Assembly: GCF_009914755.1 (NCBI RefSeq)
Contig: NC_060938.1
Length of the DNA: 64,000 bases
Strand: one strand, 5' to 3'
Source of the DNA: the human T2T-CHM13v2.0 reference genome, Homo sapiens
The notes under the pieces were generated by a model that was not told where the DNA came from, did no database searches, and was given only the letters and a program-made list of their open reading frames with translations. Of this stretch, positions 43,860-64,000 are shown piece after piece; positions within the stretch are counted from its first letter, which is position 1, and each line of letters starts with the position of its first letter. The position numbers were made by a program, and so were the translations under genes.

Positions 43860-44340
43860 GTACACATTCCCATGCTCTTTTTTATGTAGTTTTATTGCAC
43901 CTGTAAATTTTCCTAGAGAGTACAGTCATTGTAGTTGCTTTTAACTTTATTTTTAAAAGGCATAGTGCTGTAAGTCATCATTGGGAACATGCTATTTTTA
44001 CTAATATTTATGATATTGCCAGAATCCACCTACATCACTGAAGTTATGCTGCAGTTAATGTGTTTGGACAGCTGTATAATATTCCATTGTGTGATCGTGT
44101 CTTCGTGTATTCATCCCTTCTCCCACTGATGGGCATCTGGGTGGCTTCCAGGTTTCTGTTATTGTGTGCAGAAGGGCTGTGAAGTCCCAGGCATCCATGT
44201 GCAGAAGTTACTCCGGGATACCCTTAGGAGAGAAATCAGCTGGGCCACAGTACGGTGTGTGGATGTGGAACTTTAGGCTTTACTGCCGGAGAGTTTTTCC
44301 AAAGTCAGCACAGCAATTTGCATTCCCACCAGCAGCTGAG
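43860..44340 (-). mobile_element. Old L1M(E) fragment
   Basis: tataatattccattgtgtg...tgatgggcatctgggtggcttccag...caatttgcattcccaccagcag. Confidence 0.7.
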
Positions 44341-46776
44341 GAAAAGCAGAACAGCAAAAACTTGCGACACACTGGAGGCCCACGAGAGTTCTGATCCCTT
44401 CTCTGACCCCTCATGTTACTGGTCCCTTGACAGGGAGCAAACAGACGCACTATGACCCAGCATCACAAACTAATGTGTGGAAAGGCTGGGTCTTATCCCC
44501 GAGCCAACCTGACTCAAACCCCAAGCTCCTGGCACCAACGCCTCCCATGCCTCAGGGCAAGAAGCCACAGGGGGAGGCAGCTCTGAGAGGCAGAGGATGA
44601 GGTTGCAGTCAGAGGATCACATCAAGATGGACACCTCCAGAGGGTCAAGTTCACGGTCAAGGGCTGAAATGCAGACACTCCCAGACCTGTGTGTACAGGA
44701 TGTGGCCTTGGCCACCCGGGGCAGCTAGGAACTGGGCCCACACATGTGCTGTTGCAAGGTCTTCTACTCCGGTGTTTCTCACTCCATGTTTACTGCCTGA
44801 TTCAGGTGCCTCCAGGGGATCACACGAGCAGAAGTGGGACGCTGACGGTGCCTCCTGGGGTAGGAACTCCGGCCTCAAGCTCACCTTCTTCCACTCCGCC
44901 CCAGCACCCATTCTCCTTGCTGGCTGTCAGTGCCACTCCCAGAAGAGCCCACAGTGATGGCCTTCCATGGCCAGGCCTGGCAGCCACACCCCGTGCCCGG
45001 GCCTCCTGCGGGGGTGTCTTGTTCACTGTCCACTTCCACTGGGTTTGTTTGAAGCCAATGCGAAAACTCAAACGCTGTGTCTGCCCGCAAGAAGTTTAGT
45101 TACCGGAAAAAGGGTCTATCCTGAAAACAGGATGAGAAGATTTTACTAAAGGAAAAGGCGTTTGGGGGCTGAATACAGGCTCACTACGGGGATATCGAAA
45201 GGGGTAAAACTGTTGGGAACTGCGCGAGCCCACCGTGAGAACCAACTCCACGCTGAAGGTCCTTTCTCCTTACAGGGGTGTCTCCCTTGCCAGCTTCCGG
45301 AGCAGGGTCCTGAGACAGTCAGGGTCCCTCCCCCACCTCATTCATTTCCTCATATTTGTTTTCCCACATATATGTTCAATCAATATTTGTCTAGTAAAAA
45401 CAAAACTCACATTACTATTTATGCAAGAGTACAAATAACCTTTGTAAAACTGTTAATAATAGGATTCGGCTATCTTGGGGCGGCTGGACATACTGCAGCT
45501 TTTCAGAAAACCTTACATAAAGCACACCAGTGTTCAGCTAGGAGGCGGCAGCAGCAAAGTCCCAAGAACAAAGTGCTGGTGTAGGAGTCAGGCCCGCATC
45601 TCTCAATAGGTAAATCAGTTTTTAGAAGAGCGCCAAAAATTACATGCAAGCCAAAAAGTTGTCATTAGAATTCTATACACTTTAAAAACATTTTTATTGT
45701 GAAAAGTCTCAAATGCAAATAAAAGCAGACAGTACAATAAGCCCCTGTATACCCTCCAATTCAACAACAAGCAAGATTGGCTCCATCTATCTTTTTTCCC
45801 TTTGCTGTAAAGGGAAAGAATTTTAAAGCAAACTCCAGCATCATGTCATTCCACTTCTCCATCAGAATGTGCCTCTAAAGAATATTGGCGTTTTCTTACA
45901 TAACCACAATTACATGCTCTGAAGTTGTTTTTTTTTCCCCTATGTGCCTCTTAAAATGAAGGCCTCTGTATGTGTTTGGAGGCCAGCCCAGAAGTAGGAG
46001 ACAGAGGGAAGGGGCGGGGGAGACCATGGAGAGAGAACTGTGTTGGTGGAAGCTGCAGTCCCCAGGGAGCGTTTGTGATTTGCACGCCCCGTATCCTCCC
46101 TGTAGTCCTCCCTTCTGTGACTATAACCGCTAACCACCAGCCAAGGAGAATGGGAACTTGGAAGGCTGACAACGTGGCCCACCAATCCGGTAAGGGTGTA
46201 ATAGCATTGCTGGTGGAAAAATTTAAGTAACTCTTCTAAGTGCCAAACTGATGCCCCTTCCTGCAAGAAAAATGGACCACAAACAGGGCTGTGAAGCAGT
46301 GTGTGCCCTGGTCCACCCTCTGTTTAACCCACTGAAAGCCACTGGTCCCATTACAGGAAAGGTTACCTCCATCACTCAGGGGCTCCCAGAGAAGCACCTG
46401 TGGGTGGGCAGAACTGAAAGGTGTGGGGCTTTCCCGGTACGGTCTGAGTCTCCTGTCCCCCAGCTTGTCCTCTGAAGGAGACTGTGACCCACCAGACCCC
46501 TCACACATGCCCGTGAGGGGGTCAAACTCCAAATCTCAAACAACCTGTGCACAGGGTACTGGGGACACAGATGTGACCAACCAGCCCGCAAACTTGGGGA
46601 GGAATTTTTTGGGTTTAGGATGTGATCTTCTCTATATTCTCTATGCCCACGAAAGTTGCATCCTCTTCCTGCTACTGAAGAAAAATGCTTTAAAACTTGA
46701 CCCAAGAAGAGAGCAGGCAGCAACACTTTCTGCCCCAGGTGGCCCCTGCAGGGGACTGCAGACTGTCTTCCATTCA

Positions 46777-47400: not shown

Positions 47401-49396
47401 TGTGTATGGAGCGCTACTGTCCACCTCCTGCCCCCACAGCAGACATCACTAATTGATGAAGCACTCTTTTCCACAAATCTCAACGCAGAGGCCTCATAAT
47501 CCTTCTCAACACAGCCCTCTGGGCAGCCACAACCAATCAACTCAAGATTAAACCTATCTGCCACTCCCTGGACCAGGTGGTTTCCAGAGACCCTTTCAAC
47601 ATGGCGGGCCCCATGACACAGCACCTTGGAGATTATGCAAAACATGAGAACACAATCTTTCCCCAGCTTATCTGGACTCTAAATTGGCCTTCTTTGTCAG
47701 GAATAACAGACCCTGAAAGGTTCTTCAAAGTCAGGTCCCTAACAAAGCTGTTCCATCTCCAGCTCAGCGTGTTTCCCTTTGTTCTACAGGACATGGGTCC
47801 TACAGACACCATCTAGCAGGTGAGGCAGAGATGACCCAGAGAAGACGGAGAAATACACAACCACCAAAGCTGGGGATGAAATTAAATCTGACCTCAGCCC
47901 AAGAAGTAGGTACAGGCATGCATAGATGCTCCCAAGGACTACCTGGCCTCCTACAGAAAATTCAAGGGACGACCTTGTCTGCTTGGATTTTTGGCACAGA
48001 CTCAAGCGAACACTCCAAACCCAGGCTACGCACCCGCTTTAAAATTCTCTGCTTTATCTCCTGCAATATAAAGACTAGGGCCTCTCAGGGCCCAGGTGTC
48101 ATCTGATTGTGCCTCTTTAACAACCAGTGTCACAGGCCCCGGAAATCTGAAAAGCCCTGGGCTGTGACCCTCATCCTACTTACCCAGGAGGCTACAAAGC
48201 AGGGGCCTGTCAGTCACTATCCCTCCTTCCATCCTCCAACTCTGGGGTTGCTCCTGCCTCCCGCAAAGCCTCATCTTAAAGCCAGATCCTACTGAAGGAC
48301 CCCAGGGCTCCAGTGCACCCCTTCCCAGCACCTTCCAGCCCAGTGCCTTCCTGCATCACTGCAGCCTCCAGCTTTCTTATAGAGCCCTATTCTCCTCACC
48401 ATCTGTAGACTTGGAGCTGGGGAAGCTGCTTCTCAAAGGTAAGAGAGTCACCCCCTCGAACCCTGGCTCTGCCAGGCCTGGAGTGCCCAGGGCAATCCGT
48501 TCCACAGAACGGCTCATCTCCCAAGGAGACTGCCCAAAGCCCAGGCTGGCCATGCTGCCGTGGGGGGCCCAGCCAGGAATCTCAGGGGGCCATGAACAGA
48601 ACCCCCAAGAAAGACTGTCGTTGTTTCCACCAAACACCACTACTTTGATCAAGGCCTCCTCCCCAGCACCAAGGAATGAGAAAGCCCCTCCCTCTTTCTG
48701 CTTGGGCACTCAGATGTCCGGGAGCCAGGAGGAAGGGGGTGGAGAAAGTGGGGAGCCAGGGACACTCTGCCTCCTCGGAGGTCGCCAGGCACTTATTAAA
48801 CTGTCTCATCCTTGCTGGCTGAGGATACTCCACGAGGTATCGGTTTACTTTGCAAAACCAGTTCTTGCTGCTTAATAGTGTGGGGACCGGATGAATGGCC
48901 AGTTGGAAACCAGACACCCCTGGGAACAGCCCCATTCCTGGGGAAAGCAAGCACTGGGAAAAGACACAAGGACTCCCGCAGGTCACAAACCATTTTATTA
49001 CCCACATTGTGCTGTGACAGGGAGGGGTCTCCAATGAAGAGGACCTAGCACTGGAAGGTGATAGCCCCAGAAGAGAAGAGGCTTCTTTCTCACCGTGAGG
49101 CAGAAACAAATTTATCTGTATGTAAACTTTTCCAGTAATGGGTGATGCTGTGACACCTGCAGAAAGCAGCCTCCCTCTGTTACTACTATAAACGCCCATT
49201 CTGCAGGCAGTGTGAGGGCACAGCCTTCTGGAGTGCCACACCTGGGTACCACGGCACACTGGTGCATCCCGGGAAGATGTTCCTAGGGCACCACATCTGG
49301 GTACCAAGAGGACTGGTGCATCCAATTAGACCGAGGTGCAAAAGCCAATGCGTCAACATCCAAGCCATGAAGATTATCCAAAAACTCTCAGGTGGA

Positions 49397-49805
49397 GGCT
49401 AGGCGTGGTGGCTCACATCTGTAATCCTAGCACTTTGGGAGGCTGAGGTGGGAGGATCGTTTGAGTCTAGGAGTTCGAGACCAGCCTGATCAACATAGCG
49501 AGACCCCCATCTCTCTTTTTTTTTTTTTGTATTTGAAATTTTTATTTTAGGCTGCAAAAACAAAAACAAGCAAACAAACAACAAATAACTTGAAAATAGG
49601 CTTGTCAAATGATGTAAATTCATCCTTTCCAGGGAAGCGGAAGGTAGACCATCCTGCTTCACTGCTGCTTGCACTCTGTTGGGTTTTGATCCTTCTTTGG
49701 GTCATAGTCTGGATCATTTTCCTCATCTCCTCCTTCTTCCCCTTCCTCATCTGCTTCTTCACCTTCTTCATCATAATCATCACCCCATCTCTTAAAAATA
49801 ATAAA
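49397..49805 (+). mobile_element. Free left Alu monomer (FLAM-like) interrupted by the NAP1L1 retrocopy
   Basis: Left-arm Alu sequence 49397-49514, A-rich tail resumes at 49794; 19-bp TSD CCAAAAA(C/T)TCTCAGGTGGA at 49378-49396 and 49806-49824. Confidence 0.9.
49516..49782 (-). pseudogene. NAP1L1: 5'-truncated processed retrocopy of NAP1L1 (last ~40 codons, 3'UTR, poly-A)
   Basis: Encodes DDYDEEGEEADEEGEEGGDEENDPDYDPKKDQNPTECKQQ*, the NAP1L1 C-terminus with two substitutions as I recall it; AATAAA at 49541-49546; A13 tail at 49516-49528; 10-bp TSD CCCCATCTCT at 49505-49514 and 49783-49792. Confidence 0.92.
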
Positions 49806-50907
49806 CCAAAAATTCTCAGGTGGAAAAACTATGACCTTCACTATTGTGCTGCACACTACGCACTGGCACCGGGAGGAAAGAGTGGCCAGCCTACCCCAAC
49901 TGCACACCTGGGACGCCCATCAGCTGCTCTCTCCAACACGTGCGGCTGCTCTATGGTGCAGGGCCAGCTGGGGAACCAGGCTTGTCAATGTGCTGCGAAC
50001 AAGCCCAGTGTGCTGCTGGACTCCGGATCCTGGAGTCCTCCCCCACTCCCTTCCTGGCCACAGACAGCCCCAAGGGTGGATGAAGCCCACGGGTGATGCT
50101 CCAAACCCTGACCCTCAAATCCACAGCACGGGGGTGGTTCTTAGGGCACCATCCACCCAACGGCAAAGGATACTACAGTTCCCATCCTCTAAAGATGACA
50201 AACTTTTTCCTTCCAAAGCACATTCTCCCCATGAAGAAATGCAGTGTGATCCCTCAGATCCCTGGAAGCCTTTTCTAATGAGCCACATGGTGAGACCGGC
50301 ACTACCAATCCTTTTCTAAGACAGACAAGGTCCACCAGGACACAGCACGCTCAGGTAGTTTTACTTTGAGGTTTGGGTGTGCTGCTCTGCAAGACCCCAA
50401 AGCACACAGAGCCCACGTGGAAAGTGTCACCCACCGGCCAGGAGGTTTACCTAAGAAGTCTACCAATGAATGCCAGCCCACCGCAGCCAGGGCCCCAACA
50501 CACCTTTCCATCTCTACCCCAGACCCAGGGTTCTCTCACCCCACAAGTAACTTTAGCACAAGAAACGCCCTCACGGCATGTACTCCCCACCACCCCCACC
50601 CCATCAGGCCTCGATTCTGACAGACAGCAGCACCCTGACGCATATTACGAAGGTGGGAGCCTCCTACAGCCTCAGTGAGAAGGTTCCCAGGAGGAGGAGC
50701 TAACACAGTGCCAGATGTCTCGCAGCTTGCCCAGCCCTGGGAGGTGAGGGTTTCCGTGCCCACTTGGCCCACAGAAAACCTGTGTTTGGAGAAGGGCCTC
50801 AGGTCACAAGGTGGGCGGCAAGGCCAAACTCGGACATCAAAAGCTGGTTGCCCCTCTTTGGTAGTCCAGGGTGTGCCGAACAGGGGGCTAGATATTCCAG
50901 GGTTTTA

Positions 50908-62745: not shown

Positions 62746-63556
62746 TCTCTCCATCTCCTTGCCCTGGCTGAACTCCAACTCTGCTAATTACATCAAACCC
62801 ACCTTTCGCCCTCTGCAACACCTGCAATTAACCCTGAATCTCTGCTTCCTGCCGCTCTGGGGTGAGGGGTGAAGTCTGAGGCCAGCTGCTCCCTGTTCCA
62901 CCCTCCGCCCAACCCCGGAAGTTTCAGAGGTGCCTGAAGCAACCCGGTCCCTTCCTCTGGGCTCCAGGCTGGTGTGAAGCCGGGTTATCACGGGAGCCCA
63001 CACTCCCAGCTGGGGGGCACACCACACGCAGCACCCCCACCCCACTGCGGGTGCAGATCCTGACTGGCCCTGCCAGCCTTTACAGGACAGCACGTCCACC
63101 TGCAGCAAGTTACCTCCCTACATGATTCTAGAAAGCCTGGCTTTTAGAAAGAAGCTTCTCCAAGCAGCTGATGATGAAGAAAACTTGCAGCTTTCCGGGG
63201 CTGTTTCCTGATCTTGCTCCATGAGCCTTGGTTTCCTAATCTATCGAATGGAGACAGTAATTTCTTCTTTATAATACCGAAGTAACAGTGAAAAATGACG
63301 AGGCTCTAAAGCCCCCAGCATGGGCACTCAGTAAAGGTTAAGCTCCCTCCCATTCATCTCTCAGCCTTTTGATTTGGGCACAGATCTGAGTCCCACAGTT
63401 CCTCGCTGCTATCTGATATGCCTGGACAGCATTTCTTCTGACAACAAAAAGGAGAGAAAAGAAAGGAAAACAAGTCCAACTGGCACTCTAACAGCTTACA
63501 GAAACCAAATCTGCCTCCCAAGAGGTTTGGGCGTTCAGCACACCACCAGGTCCTCA

Positions 63557-64000
<444 letters not shown>

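What the first reader, a model, noticed from the sequence alone, without database searches (positions are those of the whole stretch)
49516..49824. Alu plus NAP1L1 retrocopy build an in-frame terminal exon: candidate chimeric mini-DAPLE with an acidic tail and prenylation motif
SEEN: on the CCDC88C sense (minus) strand the FLAM tail reads tttttggtttattatttttaag|AGA TGG GGT GAT GAT TAT..., a U-rich tract plus AG (49792-49791). It is followed by 43 open codons (49790-49659) RWGDDYDEEGEEADEEGEEGGDEENDPDYDPKKDQNPTECKQQ-TGA, a short 3'UTR, AATAAA (49546-49541) and a genomic A13. The AG ends on a codon boundary. The host intron is also phase 0, since exon 4 begins with a whole GAA codon, so splicing from the exon-3 donor would be in frame. 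ESTABLISHED: antisense Alu tails are a common source of new 3' splice sites, and the NAP1L1 C-terminal CKQQ is a farnesyltransferase (CaaX-type) substrate. INFERENCE: two successive retrotranspositions created a primate-specific alternative last exon. It would encode the DAPLE N-terminus (about 90 aa by my recollection, part of the HOOK domain) fused to a very acidic histone-chaperone tail and a lipid anchor, about 133 aa in total. As a terminal exon it should escape NMD. Even with no stable protein, it could attenuate full-length DAPLE by intronic polyadenylation. Caveats: a second AG 2 nt downstream (aagAG|ATGGGGTGA) would give only MG-stop, and I cannot tell whether this isoform is already annotated.
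Basis: partly seen in the sequence, partly recalled or inferred. Interest (0 to 1): 0.9.

Follow-up and report, generated by a model that had tools for sequence, protein, structure and literature searches.

The report
NAP1L1 pseudogene fragment inside intronic Alu
A small dead copy of the NAP1L1 gene landed inside an old Alu-type repeat in an intron of CCDC88C and happens to sit in frame behind a weak splice-like signal, but nothing found here shows that cells use it as an exon.

Summary
Window 49782-49529 (minus strand) is a 5'-truncated processed copy of NAP1L1. It spans five parent exons without introns, has 4 substitutions and 1 indel in 254 nt, and carries an A13 tail and 10-nt target-site duplications. 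It sits in the 3' end of an antisense monomeric Alu in CCDC88C intron 3. The intron is phase 0 after exactly 90 codons.

The claim that it is a used terminal exon finds no support:
- The AG at 49792-49791 is weak: 10th percentile of 419 real acceptors, and 13.7% of sampled random AGs score as well.
- In 39 kb of the same intron, 33 AGs (this one included) combine an equal or better score, 20 or more in-frame codons and a poly(A) hexamer.
- RefSeq has no exon there.
- 0 of 39 short DAPLE N-terminal proteins in public databases carry the acidic/CKQQ tail.
- Cutting after residue 90 halves the HOOK domain.

The intron already has a strong, annotated alternative last exon (43876-45120). Read in phase 0 it gives DRPFFR-stop, which matches the catalogued 96-aa and 88-aa isoforms.

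Verdict: an ordinary nested retrocopy with latent exon potential. No RNA data were available, so use was not tested.

The parts
49378..49396 (+). 5' target-site duplication of the monomeric Alu (19 nt; its partner is 49806-49824, 1 mismatch)
   Evidence: the repeat finder family D2, 49373-49396 versus 49801-49824, 88% over 24 nt
49398..49515 (+). Body of a monomeric Alu-type (FLAM-like) element, antisense to CCDC88C
Evidence: Rfam Metazoa_SRP match, 58.6 bits, E 7.6e-14, below gathering score 70. Soft-masked repeat 49394-49591.
49505..49514 (-). 3' copy of the retrocopy's target-site duplication (AGAGATGGGG on the minus strand; this is Alu sequence)
   Evidence: the repeat finder family D3; shared end 49505-49514 and 49783-49792; sequence
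49516..49528 (-). A13 poly(A) tail of the NAP1L1 retrocopy
   Evidence: The parent has no A-run at this point.
49529..49782 (-). 5'-truncated processed NAP1L1 retrocopy: 7 nt + 31 nt + 52 nt + 47 nt of four coding exons, then about 121 nt of a 3'UTR exon ending at a proximal poly(A) site
   Evidence: Spliced match to chr12 76022682-76025618 with 4 substitutions and 1 single-base indel
49541..49546 (-). AATAAA hexamer inherited from NAP1L1. The parent's U-rich downstream element was not copied.
   Evidence: Retrocopies on chr9 and chrY end in poly(A) at the same site, so the parent uses it.
49659..49790 (-). Hypothetical coding part: 43 codons plus TGA. The first 3 codons come from the Alu/target-site duplication (and one junction base); the other 40 are NAP1L1 C-terminal codons with 2 amino-acid changes.
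   Evidence: No Pfam family matched.
49783..49792 (-). 5' copy of the retrocopy's target-site duplication. It contains the candidate acceptor AG (49792-49791) and the second AG (49790-49789).
   Evidence: Acceptor score 0.22 bits, 10th percentile of real sites. The second AG scores -3.26 bits.
49793..49805 (+). A-rich tail of the monomeric Alu. On the minus strand it reads as the interrupted T-tract in front of the AG.
49806..49824 (+). 3' target-site duplication of the monomeric Alu
   Evidence: family D2
49862..49863 (-). Junction of a stronger acceptor-like AG (AG at 49864-49863, first exon base 49862), outside both repeats and in the same frame. It would add 24 codons (67 in all).
   Evidence: Weight-matrix score 4.35 bits, 36th percentile; first-order model 45th percentile
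49757..49765 (-). Donor-like AAG|gtgaag (last exon base 49763) inside the retrocopy. It could turn the region into a 28-nt or 100-nt frameshifting cassette exon.
   Evidence: Donor weight matrix 3.13 bits, 37.5th percentile of 403 real donors; 3% of decoys score as well
43876..45120 (-). Annotated alternative last exon in the same intron (RefSeq: last exon of LOC105370624). In phase 0 it reads DRPFFR-stop.
   Evidence: (7.31 bits, 67th percentile). Gibbon 88-aa protein ends YYQDRPFFW and lemur ends YYQGGPFFQ. 96-aa and 88-aa variants are catalogued (PMC6702192 passage).

Best explanation
The feature is a nested pair of dead retroelements in CCDC88C intron 3. First, a monomeric Alu-type element inserted antisense to the gene. 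Later, a 5'-truncated NAP1L1 mRNA copy (last 40 codons, short 3'UTR isoform, poly(A) tail) was inserted by L1-type target-primed reverse transcription. It went in between the Alu body and its A-rich tail, in the sense orientation of CCDC88C. By accident the antisense Alu tail plus an AG lie directly in front of the NAP1L1 reading frame, and the host intron is phase 0. On paper this makes a 133-aa DAPLE(1-90)-acidic tail-CKQQ protein. Most likely the segment is simply removed with the 49-kb intron. At most it is a rare cryptic site. The alternative last exon this intron really uses is 43876-45120, 4.7 kb downstream. Shown: the origin, order and geometry of the two insertions. Inferred: that the exon is not used.
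For: Retrocopy identity:
- Intronless match to five NAP1L1 exons, A13 tail, 10-nt target-site duplication made of Alu sequence, and a T-run followed by A at the insertion point.
- Alu-type element with its own 19-nt target-site duplication enclosing the whole composite.

Acceptor strength:
- 0.22 bits on a weight matrix trained on 419 RefSeq acceptors of chr14. That is the 10th percentile of real sites, and 13.7% of the sampled decoy AGs (every 5th of 32,233) score as well.
- Exon 4 scores 10.22 bits (92nd percentile) and the exon at 45120 scores 7.31 bits.
- In 39 kb of the same intron, 494 of 2902 AGs score at least as well. 33 of them, the candidate included, also have a poly(A) hexamer and at least 20 in-frame codons.

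Annotation and databases:
- No RefSeq exon here, and the Gnomon lncRNA models splice across it.
- 0 of 39 short DAPLE N-terminal proteins carry an acidic or CKQQ tail.
- No paper was found.

Other points:
- The parent's downstream poly(A) element is not part of the copy.
- The coding part has 2 non-synonymous changes and 1 synonymous change, which gives no sign of constraint.
- Pfam HOOK_N has 146 positions, and residues 16-90 reach only position 78.
Against: - No RNA-seq, EST, long-read or 3'-end data could be consulted, so low or tissue-specific use is not excluded.
- The weight matrix was trained on gene-dense, GC-rich stretches and may undervalue T-rich Alu-type tracts.
- The 129 coding bases are 76% purine, the 99.98th percentile of 129-nt windows in this window, with 3 GAAGAA. 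Such purine-rich runs are known to act as splicing enhancers (recalled, not tested), so they could boost a weak acceptor.
- The AATAAA is a site the parent really uses: 3 independent retrocopies end there.
- Antisense Alu tracts do create terminal exons when hnRNP C repression is lost (PMC4666398 passages).
- 31 protein candidates known from samples alone were left out of the protein search.
- Supplementary tables of intronic-polyadenylation and hnRNP C studies were closed.
Confidence: 0.8

Rival explanations
1. Exon 3 splices to the AG at 49792-49791 and the transcript ends at the inherited AATAAA. This gives a 133-aa protein: half a HOOK domain, the NAP1L1 acidic tail and a farnesylated CKQQ end. 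Alternatively it at least diverts transcripts from full-length DAPLE.
For: - The frame, the phase and the 43 open codons are confirmed.
- The exon-3 donor is strong: 7.81 bits, 97.8th percentile.
- The exon body is purine-rich.
- The parent uses this poly(A) signal.
- CKQQ is farnesylated in NAP1L1.
- Alu-derived terminal exons exist, and retrocopy-derived 3' exons exist: 18 of 726 expressed retrocopies in PMC2584115.
Against: - The acceptor is weak: an AAG with two 5-T runs broken by purines, at the 10th percentile.
- A better AG lies 72 nt upstream, and a far better annotated terminal exon lies 4.7 kb downstream.
- It is not in RefSeq, and 0 of 39 database proteins have the tail.
- The HOOK domain would be cut at position 78 of 146, so a stable fold is unlikely. 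This is inference.
- In the passage read, a reporter ending in CKQQ was not processed by the CaaX proteases, so a membrane anchor is doubtful.
Confidence: 0.06
2. If this spot is spliced at all, the stronger AG is used (first exon base 49862). The result is either a longer in-frame terminal exon (67 codons, about 157 aa, same CKQQ end) or, together with the donor after 49763, a 100-nt frameshifting cassette ('poison') exon.
For: - Acceptor 4.35 bits, 36th-45th percentile, the best of 28 AGs listed with first exon base between 49741 and 49950.
- Donor AAG|gtgaag scores 3.13 bits, 37.5th percentile.
- 100 nt is not a multiple of 3.
Against: Neither is annotated. No database protein contains the extra 24 residues. 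Both scores are ordinary for decoy sites: about 3-4% of decoy sites score as well.
Confidence: 0.06
3. The segment is occasionally included in variants of the intronic lncRNA LOC105370624. That lncRNA starts at 62803-63667 or further upstream and ends at 43876-45120. There would be no link to the DAPLE reading frame.
For: The lncRNA's single intron spans the element on the same strand, so the same cryptic sites are offered to its precursor RNA.
Against: Both Gnomon models skip it. The acceptor weakness is the same.
Confidence: 0.04

Closest known systems
Processed pseudogenes (retrocopies) of NAP1L1, such as NAP1L1P1, P2, P3 and LOC100420981
   Same: Intronless copy of the NAP1L1 mRNA with a poly(A) tail and target-site duplications. 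The chr9 and chrY copies end at the same proximal poly(A) site.
   Different: This copy is only 254 nt (severe 5' truncation). It is not listed as a pseudogene in the RefSeq table for the window. It is nested in an Alu-type element and lies sense-oriented inside a host intron.
Type I retrocopy 'exon acquisition': a new 3' exon given to a host gene (Baertsch et al. 2008, PMC2584115; passages read)
   Same: A sense-oriented retrocopy in a host intron whose parental frame and poly(A) signal could supply a new C-terminus.
   Different: The published cases rest on spliced mRNAs or ESTs. No transcript evidence could be obtained here, and annotation is negative.
Alu exonisation that creates terminal exons and is repressed by hnRNP C (Tajnik et al. 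2015, PMC4666398; passages read)
   Same: The antisense Alu T-tract serves as the polypyrimidine tract of a cryptic 3' splice site that pairs with a downstream poly(A) site.
   Different: Those exons use long continuous U-tracts of dimeric Alus. Here the tract is a monomer's tail with two 5-T runs broken by purines. The exon body and the poly(A) signal come from a retrocopy, not from the Alu.
Catalogued short N-terminal CCDC88C variants V5 (96 aa) and V6 (88 aa) (PMC6702192; passages read)
   Same: Exon 3 joined to an alternative last exon within intron 3, giving a truncated HOOK fragment.
   Different: They use the exon at 43876-45120 (6 codons, DRPFFR-stop). It has a strong acceptor and related tails in gibbon and lemur proteins. 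They do not use the NAP1L1 fragment. Assigning V5 and V6 to this exon is my inference from 90+6 and 82+6; their sequences were not seen.

Membership tests
Processed pseudogene / L1-mediated retrocopy of NAP1L1 | Colinear match to the parent mRNA across exon junctions, without introns | tested here: met
   Five parent exon pieces abut in 49782-49529 at 97-98% identity
Processed pseudogene / L1-mediated retrocopy of NAP1L1 | Poly(A) tail that is absent from the parent locus, at a real mRNA 3' end | tested here: met
   A13 at 49528-49516. The parent continues with other sequence. The chr9 and chrY copies end at the same point.
Processed pseudogene / L1-mediated retrocopy of NAP1L1 | Target-site duplication and a T-run/A cleavage context | tested here: met
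   10-nt duplication at 49505-49514 and 49783-49792, preceded on the minus strand by five T then A. The L1 endonuclease site preference itself is recalled.
Monomeric Alu (FLAM-like) element | 7SL-derived sequence of monomer length with an A-rich tail and target-site duplication | tested here: met
   118-nt SRP-RNA match, E 7.6e-14. Tail at 49793-49805 and a 19-nt duplication.
Monomeric Alu (FLAM-like) element | Assignment to a named subfamily by a repeat library | not testable with these tools
   No Dfam or RepeatMasker here. The annotation file gives masked stretches without family names.
Alternative terminal exon of CCDC88C (retrocopy- or Alu-derived) | Spliced, polyadenylated transcripts that use the site | not testable with these tools
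   No RNA data. Indirectly negative: no RefSeq exon, 0 of 39 database proteins, and no paper.
Alternative terminal exon of CCDC88C (retrocopy- or Alu-derived) | A competent 3' splice site | tested here: inconclusive
   10th percentile of 419 real acceptors, and 13.7% of sampled decoy AGs score as well. The home-made matrix is biased towards GC-rich genes.
Alternative terminal exon of CCDC88C (retrocopy- or Alu-derived) | A poly(A) signal with a downstream element | tested here: inconclusive
   The AATAAA is present and the parent uses it, but the parent's U-rich downstream element is replaced by A13 plus antisense Alu sequence. No quantitative model was run.
Alternative terminal exon of CCDC88C (retrocopy- or Alu-derived) | Open frame continuous with the host | tested here: met
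   Phase 0 after 270 coding nt, then 43 codons to TGA
Alternative terminal exon of CCDC88C (retrocopy- or Alu-derived) | Frame and splice sites conserved in other primates | not testable with these tools
   No primate genomes were available. The only clue is that the coding part has 2 non-synonymous and 1 synonymous change.
CaaX-type farnesylated proteins | C-terminal Cys-x-x-x accepted by farnesyltransferase | tested here: met
   The hypothetical ORF ends in CKQQ, unchanged from NAP1L1. NAP1L1 (CKQQ) was recovered in prenylome profiling and CKQQ was fully prenylated by the human enzyme in yeast. This holds only if the protein exists.
HOOK-domain proteins (Pfam PF19047) | A complete HOOK_N domain | tested here: not met
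   Residues 16-90 cover profile positions 5-78 of 146. The human fragment P0019 shows the domain running on through exons 4 and later, to position 146.

The most novel reading that the evidence does not exclude
In some tissue or state (for example low hnRNP C), the exon-3 donor splices to 49790 or 49862 and the transcript ends at the inherited NAP1L1 poly(A) signal. That would give an ape- or catarrhine-specific DAPLE N-terminal fragment with a histone-chaperone acidic tail and a farnesyl group. It would be a third intron-3 terminal exon competing with full-length DAPLE, built from two nested retroelements.
Probability: 0.04. Interest if true: 0.5.

Novelty: new member of a known kind. Interest (0 to 1): 0.15.

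Why it matters
As it stands, this is one more 5'-truncated processed pseudogene nested in an Alu-type repeat. It matters mainly for annotation, because the NAP1L1 fragment is not listed in the RefSeq table for the window.

If the exon were used, it would be a neat example of exon birth from two stacked retrotranspositions. It would also add a primate-specific way of truncating DAPLE, a Wnt and dynein-adaptor protein.

The more useful by-product is that intron 3 already has a strong alternative last exon (43876-45120), with related tails in gibbon and lemur proteins. RefSeq assigns it to a lncRNA, yet in phase 0 it explains the catalogued 96-aa and 88-aa DAPLE variants. Any study of premature termination of CCDC88C should look there first.

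Tried and rejected
- Rfam scan of 48800-50400. It gave only the SRP/Alu match and one chance hit (E 0.82).
- Bacterial promoter and terminator scan. It is irrelevant to a human intron and I ignored it. It was a wasted call.
- Pfam on the 43-aa and 82-aa reading frames. No family matched, so the tail lies outside any Pfam model, the NAP domain included.
- Literature: 'CCDC88C' with 'NAP1L1' gave 8 papers, 7 listed, all gene-list co-mentions judged from titles and abstract starts. With 'intronic polyadenylation' it gave 1 unrelated review. With 'alternative polyadenylation' it gave 4 papers, 3 listed; the one I opened (PMC10701093) concerns an eQTL. With 'Alu' and 'exonization' it gave 0.
- I planned to enlarge the splice-site training set from 20 to 40 stretches.
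- I did not run a second protein search with the 82-aa open frame. The exon-3-anchored search already covers 77-243-aa chimeras.
- Dating: 4 substitutions in 254 nt is 1.6%. With a recalled neutral rate of about 1e-9 per site per year this is roughly 16 million years, and the Poisson range for 4 events gives about 4-40 million years. This is a rough inference only. Presence in other primates was not tested.
Full report
OBSERVATION.
- A T-rich stretch ends in aag, with the AG at 49792-49791.
- Then come 43 open codons, 49790-49662, with TGA at 49661-49659.
- A short untranslated stretch follows, then AATAAA at 49546-49541 and thirteen A at 49528-49516.
- The second AG two bases further on gives Met-Gly-stop.

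HOST CONTEXT. The RefSeq table shows that the select CCDC88C transcript has coding parts of 60, 101 and 109 nt in exons 1-3, which is 270 nt or 90 codons. The intron holding the feature (window 24951-73898, 49 kb) is therefore intron 3 and is phase 0. Exon 4 starts gcag|GAA.

WHAT IT IS. A search of the whole reference with 49529-49781 found NAP1L1 on chr12 in separate exon pieces, plus several NAP1L1 pseudogenes. Pairwise alignment to the parent shows what 49782-49529 is made of:
- the last 7 nt of one coding exon (the parent exon ends at a gtaagc donor);
- three whole small exons, containing the last codons and the stop;
- about 121 nt of a 3'UTR exon.
These are joined without introns and differ from the parent by 4 substitutions and one 1-base insertion. 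The parent has no A-run where the copy has A13.

The copy is flanked by a 10-nt direct repeat, 49505-49514 and 49783-49792. On the minus strand that repeat is preceded by a run of T then A. This is the usual signature of L1-mediated insertion; the site preference is recalled, not tested.

The duplicated sequence is itself part of a 118-nt element on the plus strand, 49398-49515. That element matches the metazoan SRP RNA model (58.6 bits, E 7.6e-14, below the gathering score). It is an Alu-type monomer. Its A-rich tail (49793-49805) and its own 19-nt target-site duplication (49378-49396 and 49806-49824, one mismatch) enclose the whole composite.

The order of events is therefore shown: monomeric Alu first, then the NAP1L1 retrocopy into the junction of Alu body and tail. 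The candidate AG lies within the 5' copy of the retrocopy's target-site duplication, so it was already part of the Alu. 'FLAM' as a subfamily name could not be tested.

With a recalled neutral rate, 1.6% divergence puts the second insertion roughly 4-40 million years ago. Presence in other primates was not testable.

IS THE EXON-LIKE LAYOUT SPECIAL? I built a 23-position acceptor weight matrix and a first-order model. The training set was 419 RefSeq acceptors in 20 stretches of chr14, set against 32,233 unannotated AGs. Real sites were scored by five-fold cross-validation, and decoy fractions come from every 5th decoy.

| Site (first exon base) | Weight-matrix bits | Percentile of real acceptors |
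|---|---|---|
| Candidate, 49790 | 0.22 | 10th |
| Second AG, 49788 | -3.26 | 2nd |
| Exon 4, 24950 | 10.22 | 92nd |
| Annotated exon, 45120 | 7.31 | 67th |

- 13.7% of the sampled decoy AGs score as well as the candidate.
- In the part of intron 3 inside the window, 494 of 2902 minus-strand AGs score at least as well. Of these, 83 have an A[AT]TAAA 60-600 nt downstream. Of those, 33 (the candidate included) also offer at least 20 phase-0 codons closed before the hexamer.
It is the one with first exon base 49862 (4.35 bits, 36th percentile), which is in the same frame.
- A donor-like AAG|gtgaag follows base 49763 (3.13 bits, 37.5th percentile of 403 donors). A 28-nt or 100-nt frameshifting cassette is therefore as conceivable as a terminal exon.

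POINTS IN FAVOUR OF USE.
- The exon-3 donor is strong (97.8th percentile).
- The 129 coding bases are 76% purine with three GAAGAA, the 99.98th percentile of such windows here. That is a composition known to enhance splicing (recalled).
- The AATAAA is a real NAP1L1 site. Retrocopies on chr9 and chrY end in poly(A) at the same base, whereas the chr3, chr1 and chr12 copies read through it. However, the parent's U-rich downstream element is not part of the copy.
- My matrix was trained on GC-rich genes and may undervalue T-rich tracts.

INDEPENDENT EVIDENCE ON USE.
- RefSeq has no exon at the site. Both Gnomon models of the intronic lncRNA LOC105370624 splice across it, from 62803 or 65379 to 45120.
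- A protein search anchored on exon 3 used a 139-aa open stretch with residues 56-95 scored, so candidates were 77-243 aa. It returned 39 short DAPLE N-terminal proteins from named sources; 31 candidates known from samples alone were left out.
- I read all 39 tails by script. None is acidic and none ends in CKQQ. For 5 of the 39 (fish, turtle and sturgeon) the exon-3 end motif was not matched, but these were still checked for the tail.
- Four literature searches found nothing on such an isoform. Supplementary tables, where intronic poly(A) atlases and hnRNP C-dependent exons are listed, were closed.

WHAT THE INTRON REALLY OFFERS.
- The annotated exon 43876-45120 read in phase 0 gives DRPFFR-stop. 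AATAAA hexamers lie within about 75 nt of its annotated end, the nearest about 15 nt from it.
- A gibbon 88-aa UniProt entry ends YYQ-DRPFFW, and a lemur entry (a cluster of 12) ends YYQ-GGPFFQ. A dog 97-aa entry ends YYQ-GRPSVHS; whether that tail comes from the same exon was not checked.
- PMC6702192 (passages read) lists Ensembl/UniProt variants of 96 aa and 88 aa 'within Daple's N-terminus'.
- The arithmetic fits: 90+6 = 96, and 12+70+6 = 88 with an alternative first exon.
- A truncated N-terminal isoform made by an alternative last exon in intron 3 therefore already exists in annotation and, given the lemur tail, predates the apes. This rests on arithmetic and on the non-human sequences; I did not see the human entries.

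THE HYPOTHETICAL PROTEIN.
- Pfam HOOK_N has 146 positions. Residues 16-90 align to positions 5-78, and a human fragment continues to position 146 through later exons. The fusion would therefore hold about half a domain and probably would not fold (inference).
- CKQQ is unchanged from the parent.
- NAP1L1 (CKQQ) was identified in prenylome profiling, although with a low predicted farnesylation score (PMC7902609 passages).
- CKQQ was fully prenylated by human farnesyltransferase in yeast, but an a-factor reporter ending in CKQQ gave no mating with either CaaX protease (PMC11152559 passages). 'Lipid anchor' therefore overstates it.
- The coding part has 2 non-synonymous changes (E to G, A to T) and 1 synonymous change. 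That is too few to test, but there is no hint of constraint.

COMPARISON WITH KNOWN KINDS.
- The object is a member of the NAP1L1 processed-pseudogene family: all three defining features were tested and met.
- As a possible exon it would belong to 'Type I exon acquisition, new 3' exon' of Baertsch et al. These were 18 of 726 expressed retrocopies (PMC2584115 passages).
- It would also belong to Alu-derived terminal exons held in check by hnRNP C (PMC4666398 passages).
- It differs from the latter in having only two 5-T runs broken by purines rather than long continuous U-tracts.
- For membership in either exon class, the defining feature is spliced transcripts, and that could not be tested.

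VERDICT. The evolutionary reconstruction is supported. The functional claim is unsupported and, on the indirect evidence, unlikely. Interest is low (0.15). The most novel reading not excluded is conditional use as a third intron-3 terminal exon, with a probability of about 0.04.

Noticed in passing
window 43876-45120 (minus strand): RefSeq gives this exon only to the lncRNA LOC105370624. Spliced from CCDC88C exon 3 in phase 0 it reads DRPFFR-stop. That fits the catalogued 96-aa and 88-aa DAPLE variants, the gibbon tail (DRPFFW) and the lemur tail (GGPFFQ). A dog 97-aa entry ends GRPSVHS, but its exon of origin was not checked. Its acceptor is strong (7.31 bits, 67th percentile).
   Followed up: partly
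It would give 67 codons ending in CKQQ.
   Followed up: partly
window 49757-49765 (minus strand): A donor-like AAG|gtgaag inside the NAP1L1 coding remnant (37.5th percentile of real donors). It could define a 28-nt or 100-nt frameshifting cassette exon.
   Followed up: partly
window 49551-49571 (minus strand): The NAP1L1 3'UTR remnant carries a strong acceptor-like motif, a T-rich run ending in gcag (6.42 bits), only 5 nt upstream of the AATAAA.
   Followed up: no
L005 (chr3:123.5 Mb), L006 (chr1:102.3 Mb), L007 (chr12:32.6 Mb), L010 (chr9:122.4 Mb), L014 (chrY:2.6 Mb): Other NAP1L1 retrocopies fall into two classes. The chr9 and chrY copies end in poly(A) at the same proximal site as this one. 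The chr3, chr1 and chr12 copies read through it. In the chr3 and chr12 copies the two halves of the query lie 0.7-1.0 kb apart, about the length of the parent's last intron (701 nt). This suggests they were copied from an intron-retaining or long-3'UTR isoform.
   Followed up: partly
P0001 (Homininae, 110 aa), P0002 (Cercocebus, 127 aa): UniProt primate entries continue from exon 3 straight into the intron (tail VRAVL...). These are read-through of the exon-3 donor, a second kind of truncated model for the same intron.
   Followed up: no
window 49394-49824: The RefSeq gene table for the window lists no NAP1L1 pseudogene here. Soft-masking covers only 49394-49591, so the coding remnant (49592-49790) is unmasked and unannotated.
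   Followed up: no
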